Source of the DNA: TPA_inf: Saccharomyces
Taxonomy: Eukaryota
Direction: 5' to 3'
Length of the DNA stretch: 64,000 nt
NCBI GenBank assembly: GCA_000146045.2
Contig: BK006946.2
Span: forward strand, 128,001 to 192,000
Shown: positions 3,573 through 62,083 of the stretch, piece by piece
Numbering within the stretch: position 1 is the first letter of the stretch
Layout: each line of letters starts with the position of its first letter
Position numbers and translations under genes: made by a program
Notes under the pieces: model-generated
The model's database searches: none
The model's input: only the letters and a program-made list of their open reading frames with translations
What the model was told of the DNA's origin: nothing

Positions 3573-3824
3573 TTTACTCAATGATTATGTTTATTGTTGA
3601 AATATGTTCCCTCAAATGTCCTAACACTTCTATGATTATTTTTTCTGTGCTTCTCTTTTCAGTATGTTACTACGCTATATTTTTAGACATTGAAGCCATG
3701 ATCGCGAGATCGATCTAATGTACGTATAAAAAGAAAATGGACTTCAAGAGTACAACTAACTAAAGGAAAATCCAACTCTTCCTATAAATTTAGAATTAGC
3801 ATATTCAAAAAAGAAGAAACAAAG

Positions 3825-3896
3825 CACTCACGATGGGGGTCGAACCCATAATCTTCTGATTAGAAGTCAGACGCGTTGCCATTACGCCACGCGAGC
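3825..3896 (-). tRNA. tR(UCU): tRNA-Arg (anticodon UCU), 72 nt
   Basis: Reverse complement reads GCTCGCGTGGCGTAATGGCAACGCGTCTGACTTCTAATCAGAAGATTATGGGTTCGACCCCCATCGTGAGTG. It has a cloverleaf with TCT at the anticodon position and a GGGTTCGACCCCC T-arm. Confidence 0.9.
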
Positions 3897-31697: not shown

Positions 31698-31845
31698 AGT
31701 TCCTTTCATACTCTTTTCTTTTCTCTTTCCATTTCCCACTAGTTCTGTTCTTTTCTTCTCTTAGATACCCTTCTTTTCAGGGACTCTCGTCCTACTATTG
31801 TTGTCATTCTCGAAACATTCTCTCCCGTGCATTTTCCTTTCCCTT

Positions 31846-31876
<31 letters not shown>

Positions 31877-53473: not shown

Positions 53474-55363
53474 ATGCCAGATGAAACAAATTTTACAATA
53501 GAAGATATTGAGCCTAGGCCTGATGCCCTTCGAGGTTTGGACACCCAGTTCCTTCAAGACAACACAGCATTAGTACAAGCATATCGTGGTTTAGACTGGT
53601 CAGATATTTCTTCGTTGACCCAAATGGTAGATGTTATAGAGCAAACAGTGGTTAAATATGGCAATCCAAATGATTCAATCAAATTGGCCTTGGAAACTAT
53701 TTTATGGCAAATATTGCGTAAGTACCCTTTATTGTTTGGATTTTGGAAGAGGTTTGCTACTATTGAGTACCAGTTATTTGGTCTCAAGAAATCGATTGCT
53801 GTTCTGGCCACCTCGGTCAAATGGTTCCCAACTTCTCTGGAGTTATGGTGTGATTATTTGAATGTGTTGTGTGTTAATAACCCGAACGAAACGGATTTTA
53901 TTAGGAATAATTTTGAAATTGCAAAGGATCTTATTGGCAAGCAGTTTCTATCACACCCTTTTTGGGACAAGTTTATAGAATTTGAAGTTGGGCAGAAGAA
54001 TTGGCATAACGTTCAAAGAATATACGAGTACATTATTGAAGTTCCTCTACATCAGTATGCGCGGTTTTTCACATCTTACAAGAAGTTTTTAAATGAAAAA
54101 AATTTGAAGACAACAAGGAATATTGATATAGTTTTACGAAAAACACAAACAACAGTAAATGAAATTTGGCAGTTCGAATCGAAAATCAAACAGCCCTTCT
54201 TCAACCTGGGCCAAGTGTTAAATGATGATTTGGAAAATTGGTCGCGATATTTAAAATTTGTGACGGATCCTTCAAAATCCTTGGATAAAGAATTCGTAAT
54301 GTCCGTTTTTGACAGATGTTTGATTCCTTGTCTTTACCATGAAAATACGTGGATGATGTATATTAAGTGGCTAACAAAGAAAAATATATCCGATGAAGTG
54401 GTAGTGGATATATACCAAAAAGCCAATACGTTCTTACCACTGGATTTCAAAACTTTGAGGTATGATTTTCTTAGGTTTTTGAAAAGAAAATATCGGTCAA
54501 ATAATACCTTATTCAATAACATATTCAATGAGACAGTATCGCGTTATTTAAAGATTTGGCCCAACGACATATTACTTATGACGGAGTACCTTTGTATGTT
54601 GAAAAGACATTCTTTTAAGAATTCCTTAGATCAATCGCCAAAGGAAATTCTAGAGAAACAAACATCGTTTACTAAAATCCTAGAGACATCAATCACCAAC
54701 TACATCAATAATCAAATTGATGCCAAGGTGCATTTACAGACCTTAATAAATGATAAAAACTTAAGCATAGTCGTGGTAGAATTGATAAAAACTACATGGC
54801 TTGTACTTAAAAATAATATGCAAACAAGGAAATATTTCAACCTTTATCAAAAAAACATCCTCATTAAAAATTCTGTACCGTTCTGGTTAACTTACTACAA
54901 ATTTGAAAAGAGTAATGTAAATTTTACCAAGCTGAATAAATTCATTAGGGAGCTTGGGGTAGAAATATACTTGCCGACTACAGTAATGAATGATATTTTG
55001 ACGGATTATAAGACTTTCTATTTAACTCATTCAAATATCGTCACGTATGAATCCTCCATTATAGATTCAAATACATTTGACCCTATCTTGTACCCTGAGC
55101 TGAAAATGTCGAATCCAAAATACGATCCAGTATTAAATACTACAGCAAATGTAGATTGGCATAAAAAGACGGAATGGAAGGAGGCTGGTCACATCGGCAT
55201 AACGACAGAAAGACCGCAGATATCCAACAGTATAATTGAGTGCAATTCAGGAACTTTGATTCAAAAGCCCATCAGTTTGCCTAATTTTAGAAACTTGGAG
55301 AAAATTAATCAGGTCAAGATTAATGATCTATACACTGAAGAATTTCTTAAGGAAGGTAAATGA
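53474..55363 (+). CDS. PRP39: U1 snRNP protein with HAT/TPR-like repeats, 629 aa
   Basis: ORF track; begins MPDETNFTIEDIEPRPDALRGLDTQFLQDNTALVQAYRGLDWSD. Confidence 0.9.
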   Translation: MPDETNFTIEDIEPRPDALRGLDTQFLQDNTALVQAYRGLDWSDISSLTQMVDVIEQTVVKYGNPNDSIKLALETILWQILRKYPLLFGFWKRFATIEYQLFGLKKSIAVLATSVKWFPTSLELWCDYLNVLCVNNPNETDFIRNNFEIAKDLIGKQFLSHPFWDKFIEFEVGQKNWHNVQRIYEYIIEVPLHQYARFFTSYKKFLNEKNLKTTRNIDIVLRKTQTTVNEIWQFESKIKQPFFNLGQVLNDDLENWSRYLKFVTDPSKSLDKEFVMSVFDRCLIPCLYHENTWMMYIKWLTKKNISDEVVVDIYQKANTFLPLDFKTLRYDFLRFLKRKYRSNNTLFNNIFNETVSRYLKIWPNDILLMTEYLCMLKRHSFKNSLDQSPKEILEKQTSFTKILETSITNYINNQIDAKVHLQTLINDKNLSIVVVELIKTTWLVLKNNMQTRKYFNLYQKNILIKNSVPFWLTYYKFEKSNVNFTKLNKFIRELGVEIYLPTTVMNDILTDYKTFYLTHSNIVTYESSIIDSNTFDPILYPELKMSNPKYDPVLNTTANVDWHKKTEWKEAGHIGITTERPQISNSIIECNSGTLIQKPISLPNFRNLEKINQVKINDLYTEEFLKEGK

Positions 55364-55369
55364 AATTAA

Positions 55370-55650
55370 TCATAAATCATAAATTATATTTAAAATAATA
55401 ATTTACTCGGCCGGACCCCGAAGGAGTACCCAAATATTTACTTGTTTATAATTTATTATTGAAAATGTTTTATTCTATATTGGTAGAGTTAATAAATAAT
55501 TATATAATAAATTATTGTATGATAATATAAATAATAGTTTATGTAATATTTTAAGTTATTATTTATAATAAAAAAGTAACTATTGAACCTGTTAAATTAA
55601 AATATATTCAAAAAACATTAGAGGTTGGTAAGATTCTATTAAATCGCAGA
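55370..55650. other. Extremely AT-rich block (over 85% A+T) carrying one isolated palindromic GC cluster, TACTCGGCCGGACCCCGAAGGAGTACC. It resembles yeast mitochondrial intergenic DNA and may be a nuclear insertion of mitochondrial DNA (NUMT).
   Basis: Composition far from the nuclear intergenic norm. The GC cluster resembles mitochondrial M-type GC clusters (ACCCCGAAGGAGT). Sits in a gene-free gap beside tRNA/Ty, a typical capture site for such insertions. Boundaries are approximate. Confidence 0.4.
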
Positions 55651-55897
55651 AATCAAATAATATGAAGAGTAAAACAGGTAGATGAAATAAATTTATTATT
55701 AATTTAGTTTACGTAAATCGAAATGACAGGCCTTTTCTGTGTTTTTTGATGGTTATATAATCAGAAAAATTTGATAAATATTGTTTATATGTAAAGACTA
55801 TTAATGATTGTTTCTATCGTCAGGATATTTTGAAAACGTCCAAATATGTAAAACAACTTCTAAACATTAAATATTTTTGGTGAATTAAAAAAAAATA

Positions 55898-55968
55898 TGC
55901 GCAAGCCCGGAATCGAACCGGGGGCCCAACGATGGCAACGTTGGATTTTACCACTAAACCACTTGCGC
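55898..55968 (-). tRNA. tG(GCC): tRNA-Gly (GCC), 71 nt
   Basis: Reverse complement reads GCGCAAGTGGTTTAGTGGTAAAATCCAACGTTGCCATCGTTGGGCCCCCGGTTCGATTCCGGGCTTGCGCA, with anticodon GCC. Confidence 0.92.
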
Positions 55969-56169: not shown

Positions 56170-56501
56170 TGTTGGAATAAAAATCCACTATCGTCTATCA
56201 ACTAATAGTTATATTATCAATATATTATCATATACGGTGTTAAGATGATGACATAAGTTATGAGAAGCTGTCATCGAGGTTAGAGGAAGCTGAAGTGCAA
56301 GGATTGATAATGTAATAGGATAATGAAACATATAAAACGGAATGAGGAATAATCGTAATATTAGTATGTAGAAATATAGATTCCATTTTGAGGATTCCTA
56401 TATCCTCGAGGAGAACTTCTAGTATATTCTGTATACCTAATATTATAGCCTTTATCAACAATGGAATCCCAACAATTATCTAATTACCCAAATATATCTC
56501 A
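56170..56501 (+). repeat. Ty1 5' LTR (delta), 332 bp. The TYA ATG at 56461 lies inside it.
   Basis: Identical to the 3' copy, followed immediately by the tRNA-iMet primer-binding site. Confidence 0.9.
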
Positions 56502-57783
56502 TGGTAGCGCCTGTGCTTCGGTTACTTCTAAGGAAGTCCACACAAATCAAGATCCGTTAGACGTTTCAGCTTCCAAAATTCAAGAATATGATAAGGCTTC
56601 CACTAAGGCTAACTCTCAACAGACAACAACACCTGCTTCATCAGCTGTTCCAGAGAACCTCCATCATGCCTCTCCTCAACCTGCTTCAGTACCACCTCCA
56701 CAGAATGGGCCGTACCCACAGCAGTGCATGATGACCCAAAACCAAGCCAATCCATCTGGTTGGTCATTTTACGGACACCCATCTATGATTCCGTATACAC
56801 CTTATCAAATGTCGCCTATGTACTTTCCACCTGGGCCACAATCACAGTTTCCGCAGTATCCATCATCAGTTGGAACGCCTCTGAGCACTCCATCACCTGA
56901 GTCAGGTAATACATTTACTGATTCATCCTCAGCGGACTCTGATATGACATCCACTAAAAAATATGTCAGACCACCACCAATGTTAACCTCACCTAATGAC
57001 TTTCCAAATTGGGTTAAAACATACATCAAATTTTTACAAAACTCGAATCTCGGTGGTATTATTCCGACAGTAAACGGAAAACCCGTACGTCAGATCACTG
57101 ATGATGAACTCACCTTCTTGTATAACACTTTTCAAATATTTGCTCCCTCTCAATTCCTACCTACCTGGGTCAAAGACATCCTATCCGTTGATTATACGGA
57201 TATCATGAAAATTCTTTCCAAAAGTATTGAAAAAATGCAATCTGATACCCAAGAGGCAAACGACATTGTGACCCTGGCAAATTTGCAATATAATGGCAGT
57301 ACACCTGCAGATGCATTTGAAACAAAAGTCACAAACATTATCGACAGACTGAACAATAATGGCATTCATATCAATAACAAGGTCGCATGCCAATTAATTA
57401 TGAGAGGTCTATCTGGCGAATATAAATTTTTACGCTACACACGTCATCGACATCTAAATATGACAGTCGCTGAACTGTTCTTAGATATCCATGCTATTTA
57501 TGAAGAACAACAGGGATCGAGAAACAGCAAACCTAATTACAGGAGAAATCCGAGTGATGAGAAGAATGATTCTCGCAGCTATACGAATACAACCAAACCC
57601 AAAGTTATAGCTCGGAATCCTCAAAAAACAAATAATTCGAAATCGAAAACAGCCAGGGCTCACAATGTATCCACATCTAATAACTCTCCCAGCACGGACA
57701 ACGATTCCATCAGTAAATCAACTACTGAACCGATTCAATTGAACAATAAGCACGACCTTCATCTTAGGCCAGAAACTTACTGA
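56461..57783 (+). CDS. TYA1: Ty1 Gag (TYA), 440 aa
   Basis: ORF track; begins [39 protein letters not shown]..., a close variant of canonical Ty1-H3 Gag. Confidence 0.92.
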
Positions 57784-60700
57784 ATCTACAGTAAATCATA
57801 CTAATCATTCTGATGATGAACTCCCTGGACACCTCCTTCTCGATTCAGGAGCATCACGAACCCTTATAAGATCTGCTCATCACATACACTCAGCATCATC
57901 TAATCCTGACATAAACGTAGTTGATGCTCAAAAAAGAAATATACCAATTAACGCTATTGGTGACCTACAATTTCACTTCCAGGACAACACCAAAACATCA
58001 ATAAAGGTATTGCACACTCCTAACATAGCCTATGACTTACTCAGTTTGAATGAATTGGCTGCAGTAGATATCACAGCATGCTTTACCAAAAACGTCTTAG
58101 AACGGTCTGACGGCACTGTACTTGCACCTATCGTAAAATATGGAGACTTTTACTGGGTATCTAAAAAGTACTTGCTTCCATCAAATATCTCCGTACCCAC
58201 CATCAATAATGTCCATACAAGTGAAAGTACACGCAAATATCCTTATCCTTTCATTCATCGAATGCTTGCACATGCCAATGCACAGACAATTCGATACTCA
58301 CTTAAAAATAACACCATCACGTATTTTAACGAATCAGATGTCGACTGGTCTAGTGCTATTGACTATCAATGTCCTGATTGTTTAATCGGCAAAAGCACCA
58401 AACACAGACATATCAAAGGTTCACGACTAAAATACCAAAATTCATACGAACCCTTTCAATACCTACATACTGACATATTTGGTCCAGTTCACAACCTACC
58501 AAAAAGTGCACCATCCTATTTCATCTCATTTACTGATGAGACAACAAAATTCCGTTGGGTTTATCCATTACACGACCGTCGCGAGGACTCTATCCTCGAT
58601 GTTTTTACTACGATACTAGCTTTTATTAAGAACCAGTTTCAGGCCAGTGTCTTGGTTATACAAATGGACCGTGGTTCTGAGTATACTAACAGAACTCTCC
58701 ATAAATTCCTTGAAAAAAATGGTATAACTCCATGCTATACAACCACAGCGGATTCCCGAGCACATGGAGTCGCTGAACGGCTCAACCGTACCTTATTAGA
58801 TGACTGCCGTACTCAACTGCAATGTAGTGGTTTACCGAACCATTTATGGTTCTCTGCAATCGAATTTTCTACTATTGTGAGAAATTCACTAGCTTCACCT
58901 AAAAGCAAAAAATCTGCAAGACAACATGCTGGCTTGGCAGGACTTGATATCAGTACTTTGTTACCTTTCGGTCAACCTGTTATCGTCAATGATCACAACC
59001 CTAACTCCAAAATACATCCTCGTGGCATCCCAGGCTACGCTCTACATCCGTCTCGAAACTCTTATGGATATATCATCTATCTTCCATCCTTAAAGAAGAC
59101 AGTAGATACAACTAACTATGTTATTCTTCAGGGCAAGGAATCCAGATTAGATCAATTCAATTACGACGCACTCACTTTCGATGAAGACTTAAACCGTTTA
59201 ACTGCTTCATATCAATCGTTCATTGCGTCAAATGAGATCCAACAATCCGATGATCTTAACATAGAATCTGACCATGACTTCCAATCTGACATCGAACTAC
59301 ATCCTGAGCAACCGAGAAATGTCCTTTCAAAAGCTGTGAGTCCAACCGATTCCACACCTCCGTCAACTCATACTGAAGATTCGAAACGTGTTTCTAAAAC
59401 CAATATTCGCGCACCCAGAGAAGTTGACCCCAACATATCTGAATCTAATATTCTTCCATCAAAGAAGAGATCTAGCACCCCCCAAATTTCCAATATCGAG
59501 AGTACCGGTTCGGGTGGTATGCATAAATTAAATGTTCCTTTACTTGCTCCCATGTCCCAATCTAACACACATGAGTCGTCGCACGCCAGTAAATCTAAAG
59601 ATTTCAGACACTCAGACTCGTACAGTGAAAATGAGACTAATCATACAAACGTACCAATATCCAGTACGGGTGGTACCAACAACAAAACTGTTCCGCAGAT
59701 AAGTGACCAAGAGACTGAGAAAAGGATTATACACCGTTCACCTTCAATCGATGCTTCTCCACCGGAAAATAATTCATCGCACAATATTGTTCCTATCAAA
59801 ACGCCAACTACTGTTTCTGAACAGAATACCGAGGAATCTATCATCGCTGATCTCCCACTCCCTGATCTACCTCCAGAATCTCCTACCGAATTCCCTGACC
59901 CATTTAAAGAACTCCCACCGATAAATTCTCATCAAACTAATTCCAGTTTGGGTGGTATTGGTGACTCTAATGCCTATACTACTATCAACAGTAAGAAAAG
60001 ATCATTAGAAGATAATGAAACTGAAATTAAGGTATCACGAGACACATGGAATACTAAGAATATGCGTAGTTTAGAACCTCCGAGATCGAAGAAACGAATT
60101 CACCTGATTGCAGCTGTAAAAGCAGTAAAATCAATCAAACCAATACGGACAACCTTAAGATACGATGAGGCAATCACCTATAATAAAGATATTAAAGAAA
60201 AGGAAAAATATATCGAAGCATACCACAAAGAAGTCAACCAACTATTGAAAATGAATACTTGGGACACTGACAAATATTATGACAGAAAAGAAATAGACCC
60301 TAAAAGAGTAATAAATTCAATGTTTATCTTCAACAGGAAACGTGACGGTACTCATAAAGCTAGATTTGTTGCAAGAGGTGATATTCAGCATCCTGACACT
60401 TACGACTCAGGCATGCAATCCAATACCGTACATCACTATGCATTAATGACATCCCTGTCACTTGCATTAGACAATAACTACTATATTACACAATTAGACA
60501 TATCTTCGGCATATTTGTATGCAGACATCAAAGAAGAATTATACATAAGACCTCCACCACATTTAGGAATGAATGATAAGTTGATACGTTTGAAGAAATC
60601 ACTTTATGGATTGAAACAAAGTGGAGCGAACTGGTACGAAACTATCAAATCATACCTGATAAAACAGTGTGGTATGGAAGAAGTTCGTGGATGGTCATGC

Positions 60701-61729
60701 GTATTTAAGAATAGTCAAGTAACAATTTGCTTATTCGTTGATGATATGATATTGTTCAGCAAAGACTTAAATGCAAATAAGAAAATCATAACAACACTCA
60801 AGAAACAATACGATACAAAGATAATAAATCTGGGTGAAAGTGATAACGAAATTCAGTACGACATACTTGGCTTAGAAATCAAATATCAAAGAGGTAAATA
60901 CATGAAATTAGGTATGGAAAACTCATTAACTGAGAAAATACCCAAATTAAACGTACCTTTGAATCCAAAAGGAAGAAAACTTAGCGCTCCAGGTCAACCA
61001 GGTCTTTATATAGACCAGGATGAACTAGAAATAGATGAAGATGAATACAAAGAGAAGGTACATGAAATGCAAAAGTTGATTGGTCTAGCTTCATATGTTG
61101 GATATAAATTTAGATTTGACTTACTATACTACATCAACACACTTGCTCAACATATACTATTCCCCTCTAGGCAAGTTTTAGACATGACATATGAGTTAAT
61201 ACAATTCATGTGGGACACTAGAGATAAACAACTGATATGGCACAAAAACAAACCTACCGAGCCAGATAATAAACTAGTCGCAATAAGTGATGCTTCATAT
61301 GGTAACCAACCATATTACAAGTCACAAATTGGCAACATATATTTACTTAATGGAAAGGTAATTGGAGGAAAGTCCACCAAGGCTTCATTAACATGTACTT
61401 CAACTACGGAAGCAGAAATACACGCGATAAGTGAATCTGTCCCATTATTAAATAACCTCAGTCACCTTGTGCAAGAACTTAACAAGAAACCAATTACTAA
61501 AGGATTACTAACCGACAGTAAATCTACAATCAGTATAATTATATCCAATAATGAAGAGAAATTTAGAAACAGATTTTTTGGTACTAAAGCAATGAGACTA
61601 AGAGATGAAGTATCAGGAAATCATCTGCACGTATGCTATATCGAAACCAAAAAGAATATTGCAGACGTAATGACCAAACCTCTTCCGATAAAAACATTCA
61701 AACTATTAACAAACAAATGGATTCATTAG
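57767..61729 (+). CDS. TYB1: Ty1 Pol (TYB: protease DSGAS, integrase HHCC/DD35E, reverse transcriptase FVDDM, RNase H). Expressed as a Gag-Pol fusion by a +1 frameshift at CTT-AGG-C (57763-57769).
   Basis: The +1 frame is open from GGC at 57767 to the TAG at 61727-61729. The heptamer CTTAGGC is present 14 nt before the TYA stop. The track ORF 58010..61729 is the ATG-delimited part of this frame. Confidence 0.9.
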
Positions 61730-61751
61730 ATCTATTACATTATGGGTGGTA

Positions 61752-62083
61752 TGTTGGAATAAAAATCCACTATCGTCTATCAACTAATAGTTATATTATC
61801 AATATATTATCATATACGGTGTTAAGATGATGACATAAGTTATGAGAAGCTGTCATCGAGGTTAGAGGAAGCTGAAGTGCAAGGATTGATAATGTAATAG
61901 GATAATGAAACATATAAAACGGAATGAGGAATAATCGTAATATTAGTATGTAGAAATATAGATTCCATTTTGAGGATTCCTATATCCTCGAGGAGAACTT
62001 CTAGTATATTCTGTATACCTAATATTATAGCCTTTATCAACAATGGAATCCCAACAATTATCTAATTACCCACATATATCTCA
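61752..62083 (+). repeat. Ty1 3' LTR (delta), 332 bp
   Basis: Identical to the 5' LTR and preceded by the polypurine tract. Confidence 0.9.

What the first reader, a model, noticed from the sequence alone, without database searches (positions are those of the whole stretch)
55370..55650. Mitochondrial-looking AT-rich block with a GC cluster between PRP39 and tG(GCC): candidate nuclear insertion of mitochondrial DNA (NUMT)
About 280 bp immediately after the PRP39 stop are over 85% A+T, with long runs such as TAATAAATAATTATATAATAAATTATTGTATGATAATATAAATAATAG. They are interrupted by one palindromic GC island, TACTCGGCCGGACCCCGAAGGAGTACC. AT-spacer plus GC-cluster architecture, and the ACCCCGAAGGAGT core, is characteristic of S. 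cerevisiae mitochondrial intergenic DNA, not nuclear 3' UTRs. Nuclear copies of mitochondrial DNA are known to be captured at repaired breaks, often near tRNA/Ty hot spots such as this one. If real, it is an insertion that gene models do not explain.
Basis: partly seen in the sequence, partly recalled or inferred. Interest (0 to 1): 0.6.

Follow-up and report, generated by a model that had tools for sequence, protein, structure and literature searches.

The report
Mitochondrial DNA insert after PRP39
The AT-rich block right after the PRP39 stop codon is a 244-bp patchwork of three or four short mitochondrial DNA pieces that entered the S. cerevisiae nuclear genome, a well-known kind of event, and this locus very probably is already in the published yeast catalogue.

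Summary
Window 55365-55608 (244 bp) begins 1-2 bp after the PRP39 stop codon and is the most AT-rich stretch of the 64-kb window. It is a mosaic of mitochondrial DNA pieces, all in one orientation:
- P1, 55365-55409: spacer about 1.2 kb 3' of VAR1.
- P2, 55410-55459: the 3' part of a mitochondrial GC cluster plus its spacer flank, about 3.5 kb 3' of VAR1.
- P3, 55457-55500: the last 13 codons and stop of COB (43/44 identical).
- P4, 55522-55608: an internal VAR1 segment (82/87).

Each piece scores far above shuffled controls (z 7.7-21). The neighbouring nuclear DNA does not. The block is present in every reliable S. cerevisiae chrXIII assembly examined, including strains I believe are basal Chinese and Taiwanese lineages. 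It is absent from S. mikatae, S. kudriavzevii, S. arboricola and S. eubayanus, whose PRP39-tRNA spacers are 224-263 bp shorter. S. paradoxus could not be obtained.

The likely mechanism is end-joining capture of mtDNA fragments at a chromosomal break. Chatre & Ricchetti 2011 list NUMTs 10 and 11 at 292 and 193 bp from ARS1308, which very probably is this locus. So it is already known.

The parts
53474..55363 (+). PRP39 ORF (629 aa), stop TGA at 55361-55363. This is context: the insert begins 1-2 bp after it.
   Evidence: ORF list. The sequence is identical to Prp39p of S. cerevisiae S288C. Orthologues were named by their sources.
55365..55608 (+). Whole nuclear mitochondrial insert (NUMT), 244 bp, 83.2% A+T, made of pieces P1-P4.
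   Evidence: The piece-wise mitochondrial matches are. The S. cerevisiae PRP39-tRNA spacer is 534 bp, against 271-310 bp in four other species. The alignment places one S. cerevisiae-only block here.
55365..55409 (+). P1: mitochondrial AT spacer piece. The best match is 'site A', about 1.2 kb 3' of VAR1 (L001 24987-25036).
   Evidence: The first 23 bases match 23/23 in 17 mtDNA loci. Over the whole piece the window allele matches 45 of 50 columns, and the L011 strain allele matches 47/50 without gaps. Score z is 7.7 for the window allele and 14 for the L011 allele against shuffles. A paralogous 'site B' also matches 55379-55407 at 29/29, so P1+P2 could be one piece from an unsampled paralogue.
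55410..55459 (+). P2: 3' part of a mitochondrial GC cluster (remnant about 55408-55427) plus its right-hand spacer flank. The best match is 'site B', about 3.5 kb 3' of VAR1 (L021 27470-27523).
   Evidence: The flank 55432-55459 matches 27/28, and 28/28 in the HN1 strain allele. In mtDNA that flank follows the cluster TTCCGGGGCCCGGCCACGGGAGCCGGAACCCCGAAAGGAG. The whole piece scores z 11.3.
55404..55430 (.). It spans the P1/P2 junction and is a truncated cluster, not a stable hairpin.
   Evidence: Position. Fold is -3.2 kcal/mol, z -0.3. The motif CCCCGAAGGAG is unique in the 64-kb window and frequent in mtDNA.
55457..55500 (+). P3: last 13 codons of mitochondrial COB (I-E-N-V-L-F-Y-I-G-R-V-N-K) plus the stop at 55497-55499. 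It possibly continues into the COB 3' flank up to about 55521.
   Evidence: The six-frame translation reads ...ENVLFYIGRVNK*. The piece matches 43/44 in 20 S. cerevisiae mtDNAs and 43/43 in S. paradoxus mtDNA, with z 12.7. It overlaps P2 by 3 nt (TAT, 55457-55459), a junction microhomology.
55522..55608 (+). P4: internal segment of the mitochondrial VAR1 coding sequence. Its left edge is uncertain within the AT-only stretch 55490-55527.
   Evidence: The match is 94.3% over 87 bp, E 1e-30, to VAR1 in all 21 mt loci, with z 21. Alleles in other strains are closer to mtDNA, reaching 85/87.
55609..55897 (.). Native nuclear spacer between the insert and the tRNA gene.
   Evidence: There is no mitochondrial match above chance (z 0.0). 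At 289 bp its length equals the whole spacer of the outgroup species (271-310 bp).
55898..55968 (-). tRNA-Gly(GCC) gene. The insert lies 289 bp beyond its 3' end.
   Evidence: ARAGORN. The gene is conserved at the same place in all five species.
56170..62083 (+). Full-length Ty1-type retrotransposon with identical LTRs, on the 5' side of the tRNA gene. This is context only and not part of the insert.
   Evidence: A direct repeat at 56170-56469 and 61752-62051 is 100% identical. Strain L005 has the empty site, with a 5-bp overlap. Gag- and pol-size ORFs are present.

Best explanation
Window 55365-55608 is a composite NUMT. Three or four short fragments of S. cerevisiae mitochondrial DNA were joined end to end and captured at a chromosomal double-strand break 1-2 bp downstream of the PRP39 stop codon. 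All fragments come from one ~8.5-kb stretch (COB 3' end, VAR1, VAR1-distal spacer) and all lie in the same orientation. Non-homologous end joining is the most likely route.

The event happened in an ancestor of all sampled S. cerevisiae, after the split from S. mikatae. The copy has since drifted neutrally: SNPs, 1-5-bp indels and a truncated GC cluster. It encodes nothing.

Shown:
- mitochondrial origin of each piece;
- nuclear location;
- absence in four relatives;
- fixation within S. cerevisiae.

Inferred:
- the break-repair mechanism;
- the timing relative to S. paradoxus;
- that the insert now forms the PRP39 3' UTR and poly(A) region;
- that it adds ACS-like motifs next to ARS1308.
For: 1. 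Stringent blastn against 21 mtDNA loci gives VAR1 at 87 bp, 94.3%, E 1e-30, and the COB 3' end at 44 bp, 97.7-100%, E 1e-16 to 1e-18. The COB piece translates to the exact C-terminus of cytochrome b.
2. The GC-island part matches mitochondrial spacer sites 3' of VAR1, with flanks at 29/29 and 27/28 around a GC cluster and 47/50 in the L011 allele.
3. All pieces score z 7.7-21 against shuffled queries. Three nuclear controls, including the adjacent 55609-55700, score z -0.6 to 1.1. The rest of the 64-kb window gives no mtDNA hit except a (TA)n repeat.
4. The PRP39-stop to tRNA-Gly distance is 534 bp in S. cerevisiae but 306, 281, 271 and 310 bp in S. mikatae, S. kudriavzevii, S. arboricola and S. 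eubayanus. The excess of 224-263 bp fits the 244-bp insert, and none of the four has the GC motif.
5. The insert is present, with a few SNPs, in 19 further chrXIII assemblies, 3 assemblies of the strains XXYS1_4, EM14S01-3B and HN1, and 2 metagenome contigs. So it is not an assembly artefact.
6. At several polymorphic sites the non-reference nuclear allele equals the mtDNA base, as expected for decay from an mtDNA original.
7. Junction P2/P3 shares only 3 nt (TAT) and P1/P2 shares 0-1 nt, which fits end joining.
8. Capture of mtDNA at double-strand breaks by NHEJ is established (PMC11372161 introduction; PMC3050842).
Against: - S. paradoxus, the closest relative, was not obtained, so the insertion is dated only to after the S. 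mikatae split.
- Only about 27 kb (about one third) of each mtDNA was searchable. P1 and P2 lie in repeated spacer DNA, so a better-matching paralogue may exist elsewhere, and the piece count (3 or 4) is uncertain.
- The nuclear GC remnant differs from the cluster at site B by three small indels and three mismatches, so its exact donor is not identified.
- The P3/P4 junction cannot be placed within the AT-only stretch 55500-55527.
- The pre-insertion sequence is unknown, so the outer junctions cannot be analysed.
- The mechanism is inferred from anatomy and literature and was not observed.
Confidence: 0.93

Rival explanations
1. The pieces were not separate fragments ligated at the break. They were copied or captured as one unit from an already rearranged mitochondrial molecule (for example a petite-type rho- genome), or by template switching along one mtDNA or RNA template.
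For: All pieces have the same orientation, which has a chance of about 1/8 for four independent pieces. All map within about 8.5 kb of mtDNA (L023: COB end 17.2 kb, VAR1 piece 21.0 kb, site A 22.8 kb, site B 25.6 kb). If the pieces were drawn at random, the chance that the three others all fall in the fetched ~27 kb of ~80 kb is about 3%.
Against: Only the COB-centred third of the mtDNA was searched, so P1 and P2 could have better matches elsewhere. The order in the insert (A, B, COB, VAR1) is not collinear. No rearranged mtDNA with these junctions was seen in 21 mt loci. Multi-fragment NUMT loci are described as multiple insertions (PMC3050842, Table 1 legend).
Confidence: 0.25
2. The block is native nuclear DNA, an AT-rich PRP39 terminator or ARS-flanking sequence, and its likeness to mtDNA is a by-product of low-complexity AT composition.
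For: Permissive scoring (+1/-1) aligns almost any AT-rich stretch here to mtDNA at 60-68% identity. The block carries poly(A)-type and ACS-like motifs.
Against: With stringent scoring the matches are 94-100% and include G/C-containing coding DNA of COB and VAR1. Equally AT-rich nuclear controls score at chance. The block is absent from four related species.
Confidence: 0.01
3. The block is an assembly or contamination artefact: abundant mitochondrial reads were mis-joined into the chromosome XIII sequence.
For: Three long-read assemblies of divergent strains (L047, L048, L052) show different 650-870-bp deletions at this locus, so the region is error-prone in some assemblies.
Against: The same junctions, with strain-specific SNPs, occur in more than 20 independent assemblies from several projects and in 2 metagenome contigs. 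The copy differs from every mtDNA sampled by fixed substitutions and indels.
Confidence: 0.01

Closest known systems
Resident S. cerevisiae NUMTs (catalogue of Ricchetti, Fairhead & Dujon 1999, renumbered in Chatre & Ricchetti 2011, PMC3050842), specifically NUMT10 and NUMT11 next to ARS1308
   Same: These are short mtDNA fragments (22-236 bp) in non-coding nuclear DNA that are AT-rich, ACS-rich and sometimes occur several per locus (Table 1 legend). Table 1 puts NUMTs 10 and 11 at 292 and 193 bp from ARS1308 on chromosome XIII. If ARS1308 starts near window 55795, which is my recollection of its position beside tG(GCC)M, those distances give ends near 55503 and 55602. That is within a few bp of the ends of P3 (55500) and P4 (55608).
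   Different: The table of NUMT sequences is held only as an image, so the identity of the locus could not be verified directly. The catalogue lists two NUMTs at this locus, whereas I find 3-4 pieces. The left 95 bp with the GC-cluster remnant may or may not be included in NUMT10.
Experimentally captured mtDNA at induced double-strand breaks in yeast (Ricchetti et al. 1999; Yu & Gabriel 1999; Nat Commun 2024, PMC11372161)
   Same: The size range, the patchwork of non-contiguous mtDNA fragments, and the junctions with 0-3 nt of microhomology are alike.
   Different: This is an old event that is fixed across the species, not an experimental one. The break and the repair pathway are inferred.
Mobile palindromic GC clusters of yeast mtDNA (de Zamaroczy & Bernardi 1986; Weiller et al. 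1989; Wu & Hao 2015, PMC4478555)
   Same: The island carries the conserved 3' arm motif GGA(A)CCCCGAA(A)GGAG and sits in AT spacer DNA with the same flanks as a cluster-bearing mitochondrial site.
   Different: Only about 20 nt of the cluster remain, and the hairpin is lost. It is a dead nuclear copy, not an active element. The class names M1 and M2 that I use for the clusters come from memory of Weiller et al. and were not checked.

Membership tests
NUMT (nuclear copy of mitochondrial DNA) | Lies in a nuclear chromosome, flanked by nuclear genes | tested here: met
   It lies between PRP39 and tRNA-Gly(GCC)/RRN11 on chromosome XIII-size contigs (0.88-0.97 Mb) in more than 20 assemblies.
NUMT (nuclear copy of mitochondrial DNA) | Significant sequence identity to the mitochondrial genome of the same or a closely related species | tested here: met
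   VAR1 matches 82/87, COB 43/44, and the spacer pieces 29/29, 27/28 and 47/50. Scores are z 7.7-21 against shuffles, with nuclear controls at chance.
NUMT (nuclear copy of mitochondrial DNA) | Direction of transfer is mitochondrion to nucleus: the sequence is ancestral in mtDNA and an insertion at the nuclear site | tested here: met
   The COB and VAR1 segments are parts of conserved mitochondrial genes that are also present in S. paradoxus mtDNA. The nuclear block is absent from four Saccharomyces species. S. paradoxus nuclear DNA was not tested.
NUMT (nuclear copy of mitochondrial DNA) | Junctions typical of end joining (blunt or a few nt of microhomology) | tested here: inconclusive
   Internal junctions share 0-1 nt (P1/P2) and 3 nt (P2/P3). 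P3/P4 cannot be placed in AT-only DNA. The outer junctions cannot be analysed without the pre-insertion sequence.
Yeast mitochondrial GC cluster | Conserved GC-rich motif (…GGA(A)CCCCGAA(A)GGAG) embedded in AT spacer | tested here: met
   GGACCCCGAAGGAGT lies at 55413-55427. ACCCCGAAGGAGT occurs 5-13 times per 27-kb S. cerevisiae mt locus.
Yeast mitochondrial GC cluster | Palindromic, folds into a stable hairpin (PMC4478555) | tested here: not met
   The nuclear copy folds at -3.2 kcal/mol, z -0.3. An intact cluster at mitochondrial site B folds at -12.4 kcal/mol, z -2.8. The nuclear copy is a truncated remnant, not an intact cluster.
ACS-rich NUMT acting on a nearby replication origin (Chatre & Ricchetti 2011) | Contains matches to the ARS consensus sequence and lies close to an ARS | tested here: met
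   There are four matches with at most 1 mismatch to WTTTAYRTTTW inside the insert, starting at 55367(-), 55374(-), 55382(+) and 55522(-). Table 1 places NUMT10 and NUMT11 193-292 bp from ARS1308. The motif count was not compared with chance.
ACS-rich NUMT acting on a nearby replication origin (Chatre & Ricchetti 2011) | Measurable effect on replication (plasmid maintenance, 2D gels) | not testable with these tools
   The paper reports only an ssDNA origin signal for the region of NUMT10 and NUMT11. No direct test of these two was found.
Native conserved 3' UTR / terminator of PRP39 | Orthologous sequence present after the stop codon in related species | tested here: not met
   The four outgroup species have unrelated sequence directly after the stop codon and a spacer 224-263 bp shorter.

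The most novel reading that the evidence does not exclude
The insert starts 1-2 bp after the stop codon of the essential gene PRP39. It carries TATATA (55501) and AATAAA (55491, 55506, 55567) elements. So the whole PRP39 3' UTR and its cleavage/poly(A) signals in S. cerevisiae may be built from mitochondrial DNA, including a piece of COB and a piece of VAR1. That would be a species-specific terminator recruited from the organelle. A second element is that the left 95 bp with the GC-cluster remnant may be an uncatalogued extension of the known NUMT10/11 locus, and that the same-orientation, same-region pieces came from one rearranged mtDNA molecule.
Probability: 0.45. Interest if true: 0.35.

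Novelty: already known. Interest (0 to 1): 0.22.

Why it matters
The result shows that a reader working from raw sequence alone correctly recognised organelle-derived DNA, and it gives base-level anatomy of one yeast NUMT locus.

- It is a patchwork of COB, VAR1 and spacer/GC-cluster pieces.
- It is fixed in the species and absent from four relatives.
- It abuts the stop codon of an essential splicing-factor gene and lies about 190 bp from a replication origin.

NUMTs and their capture at repaired breaks are textbook knowledge for yeast, and this locus is very probably NUMT10/11 of the published catalogue, so nothing new in kind is added.

Two modest points of value remain:
- The copy is a dated fossil of the ancestral S. 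cerevisiae mtDNA. For example, it keeps ATT where all 20 modern S. cerevisiae COB genes have ATC.
- The idea that mtDNA now supplies the PRP39 3' end signals is directly testable.

Tried and rejected
- A concatenated Cox2+Cox3+I-SceI+Cox1 query, meant to reach the rest of the mtDNA in one protein search, returned only natural Cox1-Cox2 fusion proteins and no yeast entries. That search was wasted.
- The viral-contig scan for the GC island found nothing.
- The single metagenome scan for GAAGGAGTACCCAAATATTTAC returned only two copies of the same nuclear locus and no mitochondrial donor.
- Permissive blastn scoring (+1/-1) produced hundreds of meaningless 60-68% AT-rich alignments and was abandoned for +1/-3.
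- The NUMT sequence table of Chatre & Ricchetti 2011 is held only as an image. Ricchetti et al. 1999 is not in the library. No paper gave ARS1308 coordinates.
- S. paradoxus PRP39 and its neighbours sit inside the S. cerevisiae 90% clusters, and only S. cerevisiae members were listed, so the S. paradoxus nuclear locus was not obtained.
- I considered an S. paradoxus-like mtDNA donor, because the COB piece matches S. paradoxus 43/43 and one VAR1 site also agrees. I rejected it as unsupported. The L011, L039 and L044 nuclear alleles carry the S. cerevisiae mtDNA base at that VAR1 site, which leaves a single COB site that could equally be ancestral or a nuclear C-to-T change.
- A second apparent mtDNA hit at 31844-31876 is only a (TA)n microsatellite.
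- Apparent absence of the block or the tRNA in assemblies L047, L048 and L052 was judged an assembly artefact. The deletions differ from each other, and one truncates essential PRP39. Other assemblies carrying the same PRM6 allele (by protein names and accessions the same strains, which is not proven) are intact.

Full report
**Observation**

- A 629-aa ORF (53474-55363) is identical to S288C Prp39p and ends with TGA at 55361-55363.
- tRNA-Gly(GCC) lies at 55898-55968 on the minus strand.
- A full-length Ty1-type element with identical LTRs occupies 56170-62083.
- Both quoted strings occur exactly once, at 55404-55430 and 55490-55537.
- The block is the most AT-rich stretch in the 64 kb at three window sizes. 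At 150 bp it is 89.3% A+T, against a mean of 62.1% and sd of 5.7%.

Two numbers need correcting. The interval 55370-55650 as a whole is 80.8% A+T, not over 85%. The GC island is not a stable palindrome: its DNA fold is -3.2 kcal/mol with z -0.3.

**How the mitochondrial sequence was obtained**

No tool holds the yeast mitochondrial genome directly. A six-frame translation with the yeast mitochondrial code showed ...ENVLFYIGRVNK-stop in the block. I recognised this as the C-terminus of cytochrome b.

A protein search with cytochrome b returned the S288C protein at 100% identity. Look-ups of it and of two allelic variants gave 20 S. cerevisiae mtDNA stretches of about 27 kb (ATP6-COB-ATP9-VAR1 and beyond). 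A further look-up gave one S. paradoxus stretch.

**What the block is**

With stringent scoring, four pieces emerge. All are on the same strand as COB and VAR1, and all are on the + strand of the window.

| Piece | Window | Mitochondrial source | Match | z vs shuffles |
|---|---|---|---|---|
| P1 | 55365-55409 | Spacer 'site A', ~1.2 kb 3' of VAR1 | 23/23 at the start in 17 mt loci; 45 of 50 columns overall; 47/50 ungapped in L011 allele | 7.7 (L011 allele 14) |
| P2 | 55410-55459 | 3' part of a GC cluster plus its spacer flank, 'site B', ~3.5 kb 3' of VAR1 | Flank 55432-55459 27/28; 28/28 in HN1 allele | 11.3 |
| P3 | 55457-55500 | Last 13 codons and stop of COB | 43/44 to all 20 S. cerevisiae mtDNAs; 43/43 to S. 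paradoxus mtDNA | 12.7 |
| P4 | 55522-55608 | Internal VAR1 coding DNA | 82/87, E 1e-30, in all 21 mt loci | 21 |

- For P1, the L011 allele carries five extra bases that are also present in mtDNA.
- For P2, the same left flank as in the window (55379-55407, 29/29) precedes the intact cluster TTCCGGGGCCCGGCCACGGGAGCCGGAACCCCGAAAGGAG at site B. The two flanks are 64 bp apart in mtDNA and 24 bp apart in the window.
- Sites A and B are paralogous spacer repeats. P1+P2 could therefore be one fragment from a paralogue I could not sample.

Controls support these assignments. Two other AT-rich nuclear stretches and the DNA immediately to the right (55609-55700) score at chance, z -0.6 to 1.1. The rest of the window has no mtDNA hit except a (TA)n microsatellite.

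The insert is therefore 55365-55608, 244 bp.

**The GC island**

The motif ACCCCGAAGGAGT occurs 5-13 times in each 27-kb S. cerevisiae mtDNA locus. It occurs once in each S. cerevisiae nuclear locus, always at this spot, and not at all in the outgroup loci.

Only about 20 nt of the cluster survive. The 5' arm is missing and the hairpin is lost, whereas the intact mitochondrial cluster folds at -12.4 kcal/mol with z -2.8. Either the captured fragment began inside a cluster, or the palindrome was partly deleted in the nucleus.

GC clusters are mobile and vary in presence between strains (PMC4478555). An exact modern donor need not exist.

**Insertion polarity and age**

The distance from the PRP39 stop codon to tRNA-Gly differs between species:

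| Species | Distance (bp) |
|---|---|
| S. cerevisiae | 534 |
| S. mikatae | 306 |
| S. kudriavzevii | 281 |
| S. arboricola | 271 |
| S. eubayanus | 310 |

- The excess of 224-263 bp matches the 244-bp insert.
- A multiple alignment puts one S. cerevisiae-only block directly after the stop codon.
- Removing the insert leaves 290 bp, the outgroup size.

Within S. cerevisiae the block is present with a few SNPs in the following:
- 19 chromosome XIII assemblies besides the window;
- two metagenome contigs;
- assemblies of XXYS1_4, EM14S01-3B and HN1, which I believe are among the most divergent Chinese and Taiwanese lineages (strain placement from memory).

Three other long-read assemblies (L047, L048, L052) show different 650-870-bp deletions here. 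One of them truncates essential PRP39. They carry the same PRM6 allele as the intact assemblies L049-L051 and, by protein names and accessions, appear to be the same strains, though that is not proven. I regard these deletions as artefacts.

At several polymorphic sites the non-reference nuclear allele carries the mtDNA base. This is what decay from an mtDNA original predicts. The most mt-like alleles differ from modern mtDNA at only about 3% of sites. From that I infer an insertion on the S. cerevisiae branch after the S. paradoxus split. The S. paradoxus nuclear locus could not be fetched, so this remains a prediction.

**Mechanism**

The anatomy has these features:
- short non-contiguous mtDNA fragments;
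- internal junctions with 0-3 nt of shared sequence (TAT at P2/P3);
- location in non-coding DNA near a tRNA gene and a Ty element.

This is the pattern known for mtDNA captured at chromosomal double-strand breaks by non-homologous end joining (PMC11372161 introduction; PMC3050842; Ricchetti et al. 1999 from memory).

All pieces share one orientation and map within about 8.5 kb of mtDNA. That leaves room for a single rearranged donor molecule or for template switching. I rate that rival at about 0.25, with the caveat that only a third of the mtDNA could be searched.

The insert lies on the 3' side of the tRNA gene, and the Ty1 lies on the 5' side. The Ty1 is absent from the 19 other chromosome XIII assemblies compared (empty site shown in strain L005). 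The two events are therefore independent.

**Consequences (inferred, not shown)**

- The insert begins 1-2 bp after the stop codon and contains TATATA and AATAAA elements. The PRP39 3' UTR and poly(A) signals in S. cerevisiae probably lie in mitochondrial-derived DNA.
- It also contains four near-matches to the ARS consensus.
- According to Chatre & Ricchetti, NUMTs near origins can contribute to origin activity. For NUMTs 10 and 11 only an ssDNA origin signal in the region is reported.

**Comparison with what is known**

Chatre & Ricchetti 2011 analyse 31 resident S. cerevisiae NUMTs of 22-236 bp. Their Table 1 places NUMT10 and NUMT11 at 292 and 193 bp from ARS1308 on chromosome XIII.

My recollection is that ARS1308 lies beside tG(GCC)M, starting near window 55795. 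With that, the distances give ends at about 55503 and 55602, within a few bp of the ends of P3 and P4.

The table of sequences is not readable in the library. I estimate at about 0.85 that this is the same locus. Whether the left 95 bp with the GC-cluster remnant were catalogued is unknown.

**Verdict**

The feature is a real, old, species-wide composite NUMT of a well-known kind and is very probably already catalogued. Interest is low. The residual points of interest are the fine anatomy and the testable idea that mtDNA supplies the 3' end signals of an essential nuclear gene.

Noticed in passing
window 56170-62083: A full-length Ty1-type element with 100% identical LTRs and a 5-bp target duplication lies about 200 bp on the 5' side of tRNA-Gly(GCC). 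Strain L005 has the precise empty site. L010 carries a diverged solo LTR in the opposite orientation there. L038 and L045 carry about 340-365 bp of extra sequence between the tRNA gene and this site.
   Followed up: partly
L047, L048, L052 (assemblies GCA_903819205.2, GCA_903819195.2, GCA_903819125.2): These long-read assemblies show three different 650-870-bp deletions across the PRP39 3' end, NUMT and tRNA region. One truncates essential PRP39 to 456 aa. Other assemblies carrying the same PRM6 allele, apparently of the same strains (L049-L051), are intact, so these are probably assembly errors in AT-rich DNA.
   Followed up: partly
window 55481; mt loci L001-L004, L021-L036 (COB codon Ile, third base): All 20 S. 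cerevisiae mtDNAs read ATC at this COB codon. The nuclear copy in every strain, and S. paradoxus mtDNA, read ATT. The NUMT may preserve the ancestral mitochondrial state, or it may have had an early C-to-T change.
   Followed up: partly
L021 27383-27535; L001 24975-25060: The mitochondrial spacer 3' of VAR1 contains two paralogous segments, sites A and B. Both start CTATTTATTAAT and end AATAATAATTTACT(C/T)G. At site B a 16-nt direct repeat (ATTTACTTGTTATAAT) flanks the GC cluster.
   Followed up: no
window 31844-31876: A (TA)n microsatellite gives a spurious 97% match over 33 bp to mitochondrial spacer DNA. It is not a NUMT.
   Followed up: yes
window 55363-55364; loci L007, L010, L011, L049, L050: One A is missing between the PRP39 stop codon and the insert in several strains, so in them the mitochondrial DNA starts immediately after TGA.
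   Followed up: no
window 3824-3896: A second tRNA gene, tRNA-Arg(TCT), lies on the minus strand.
   Followed up: no
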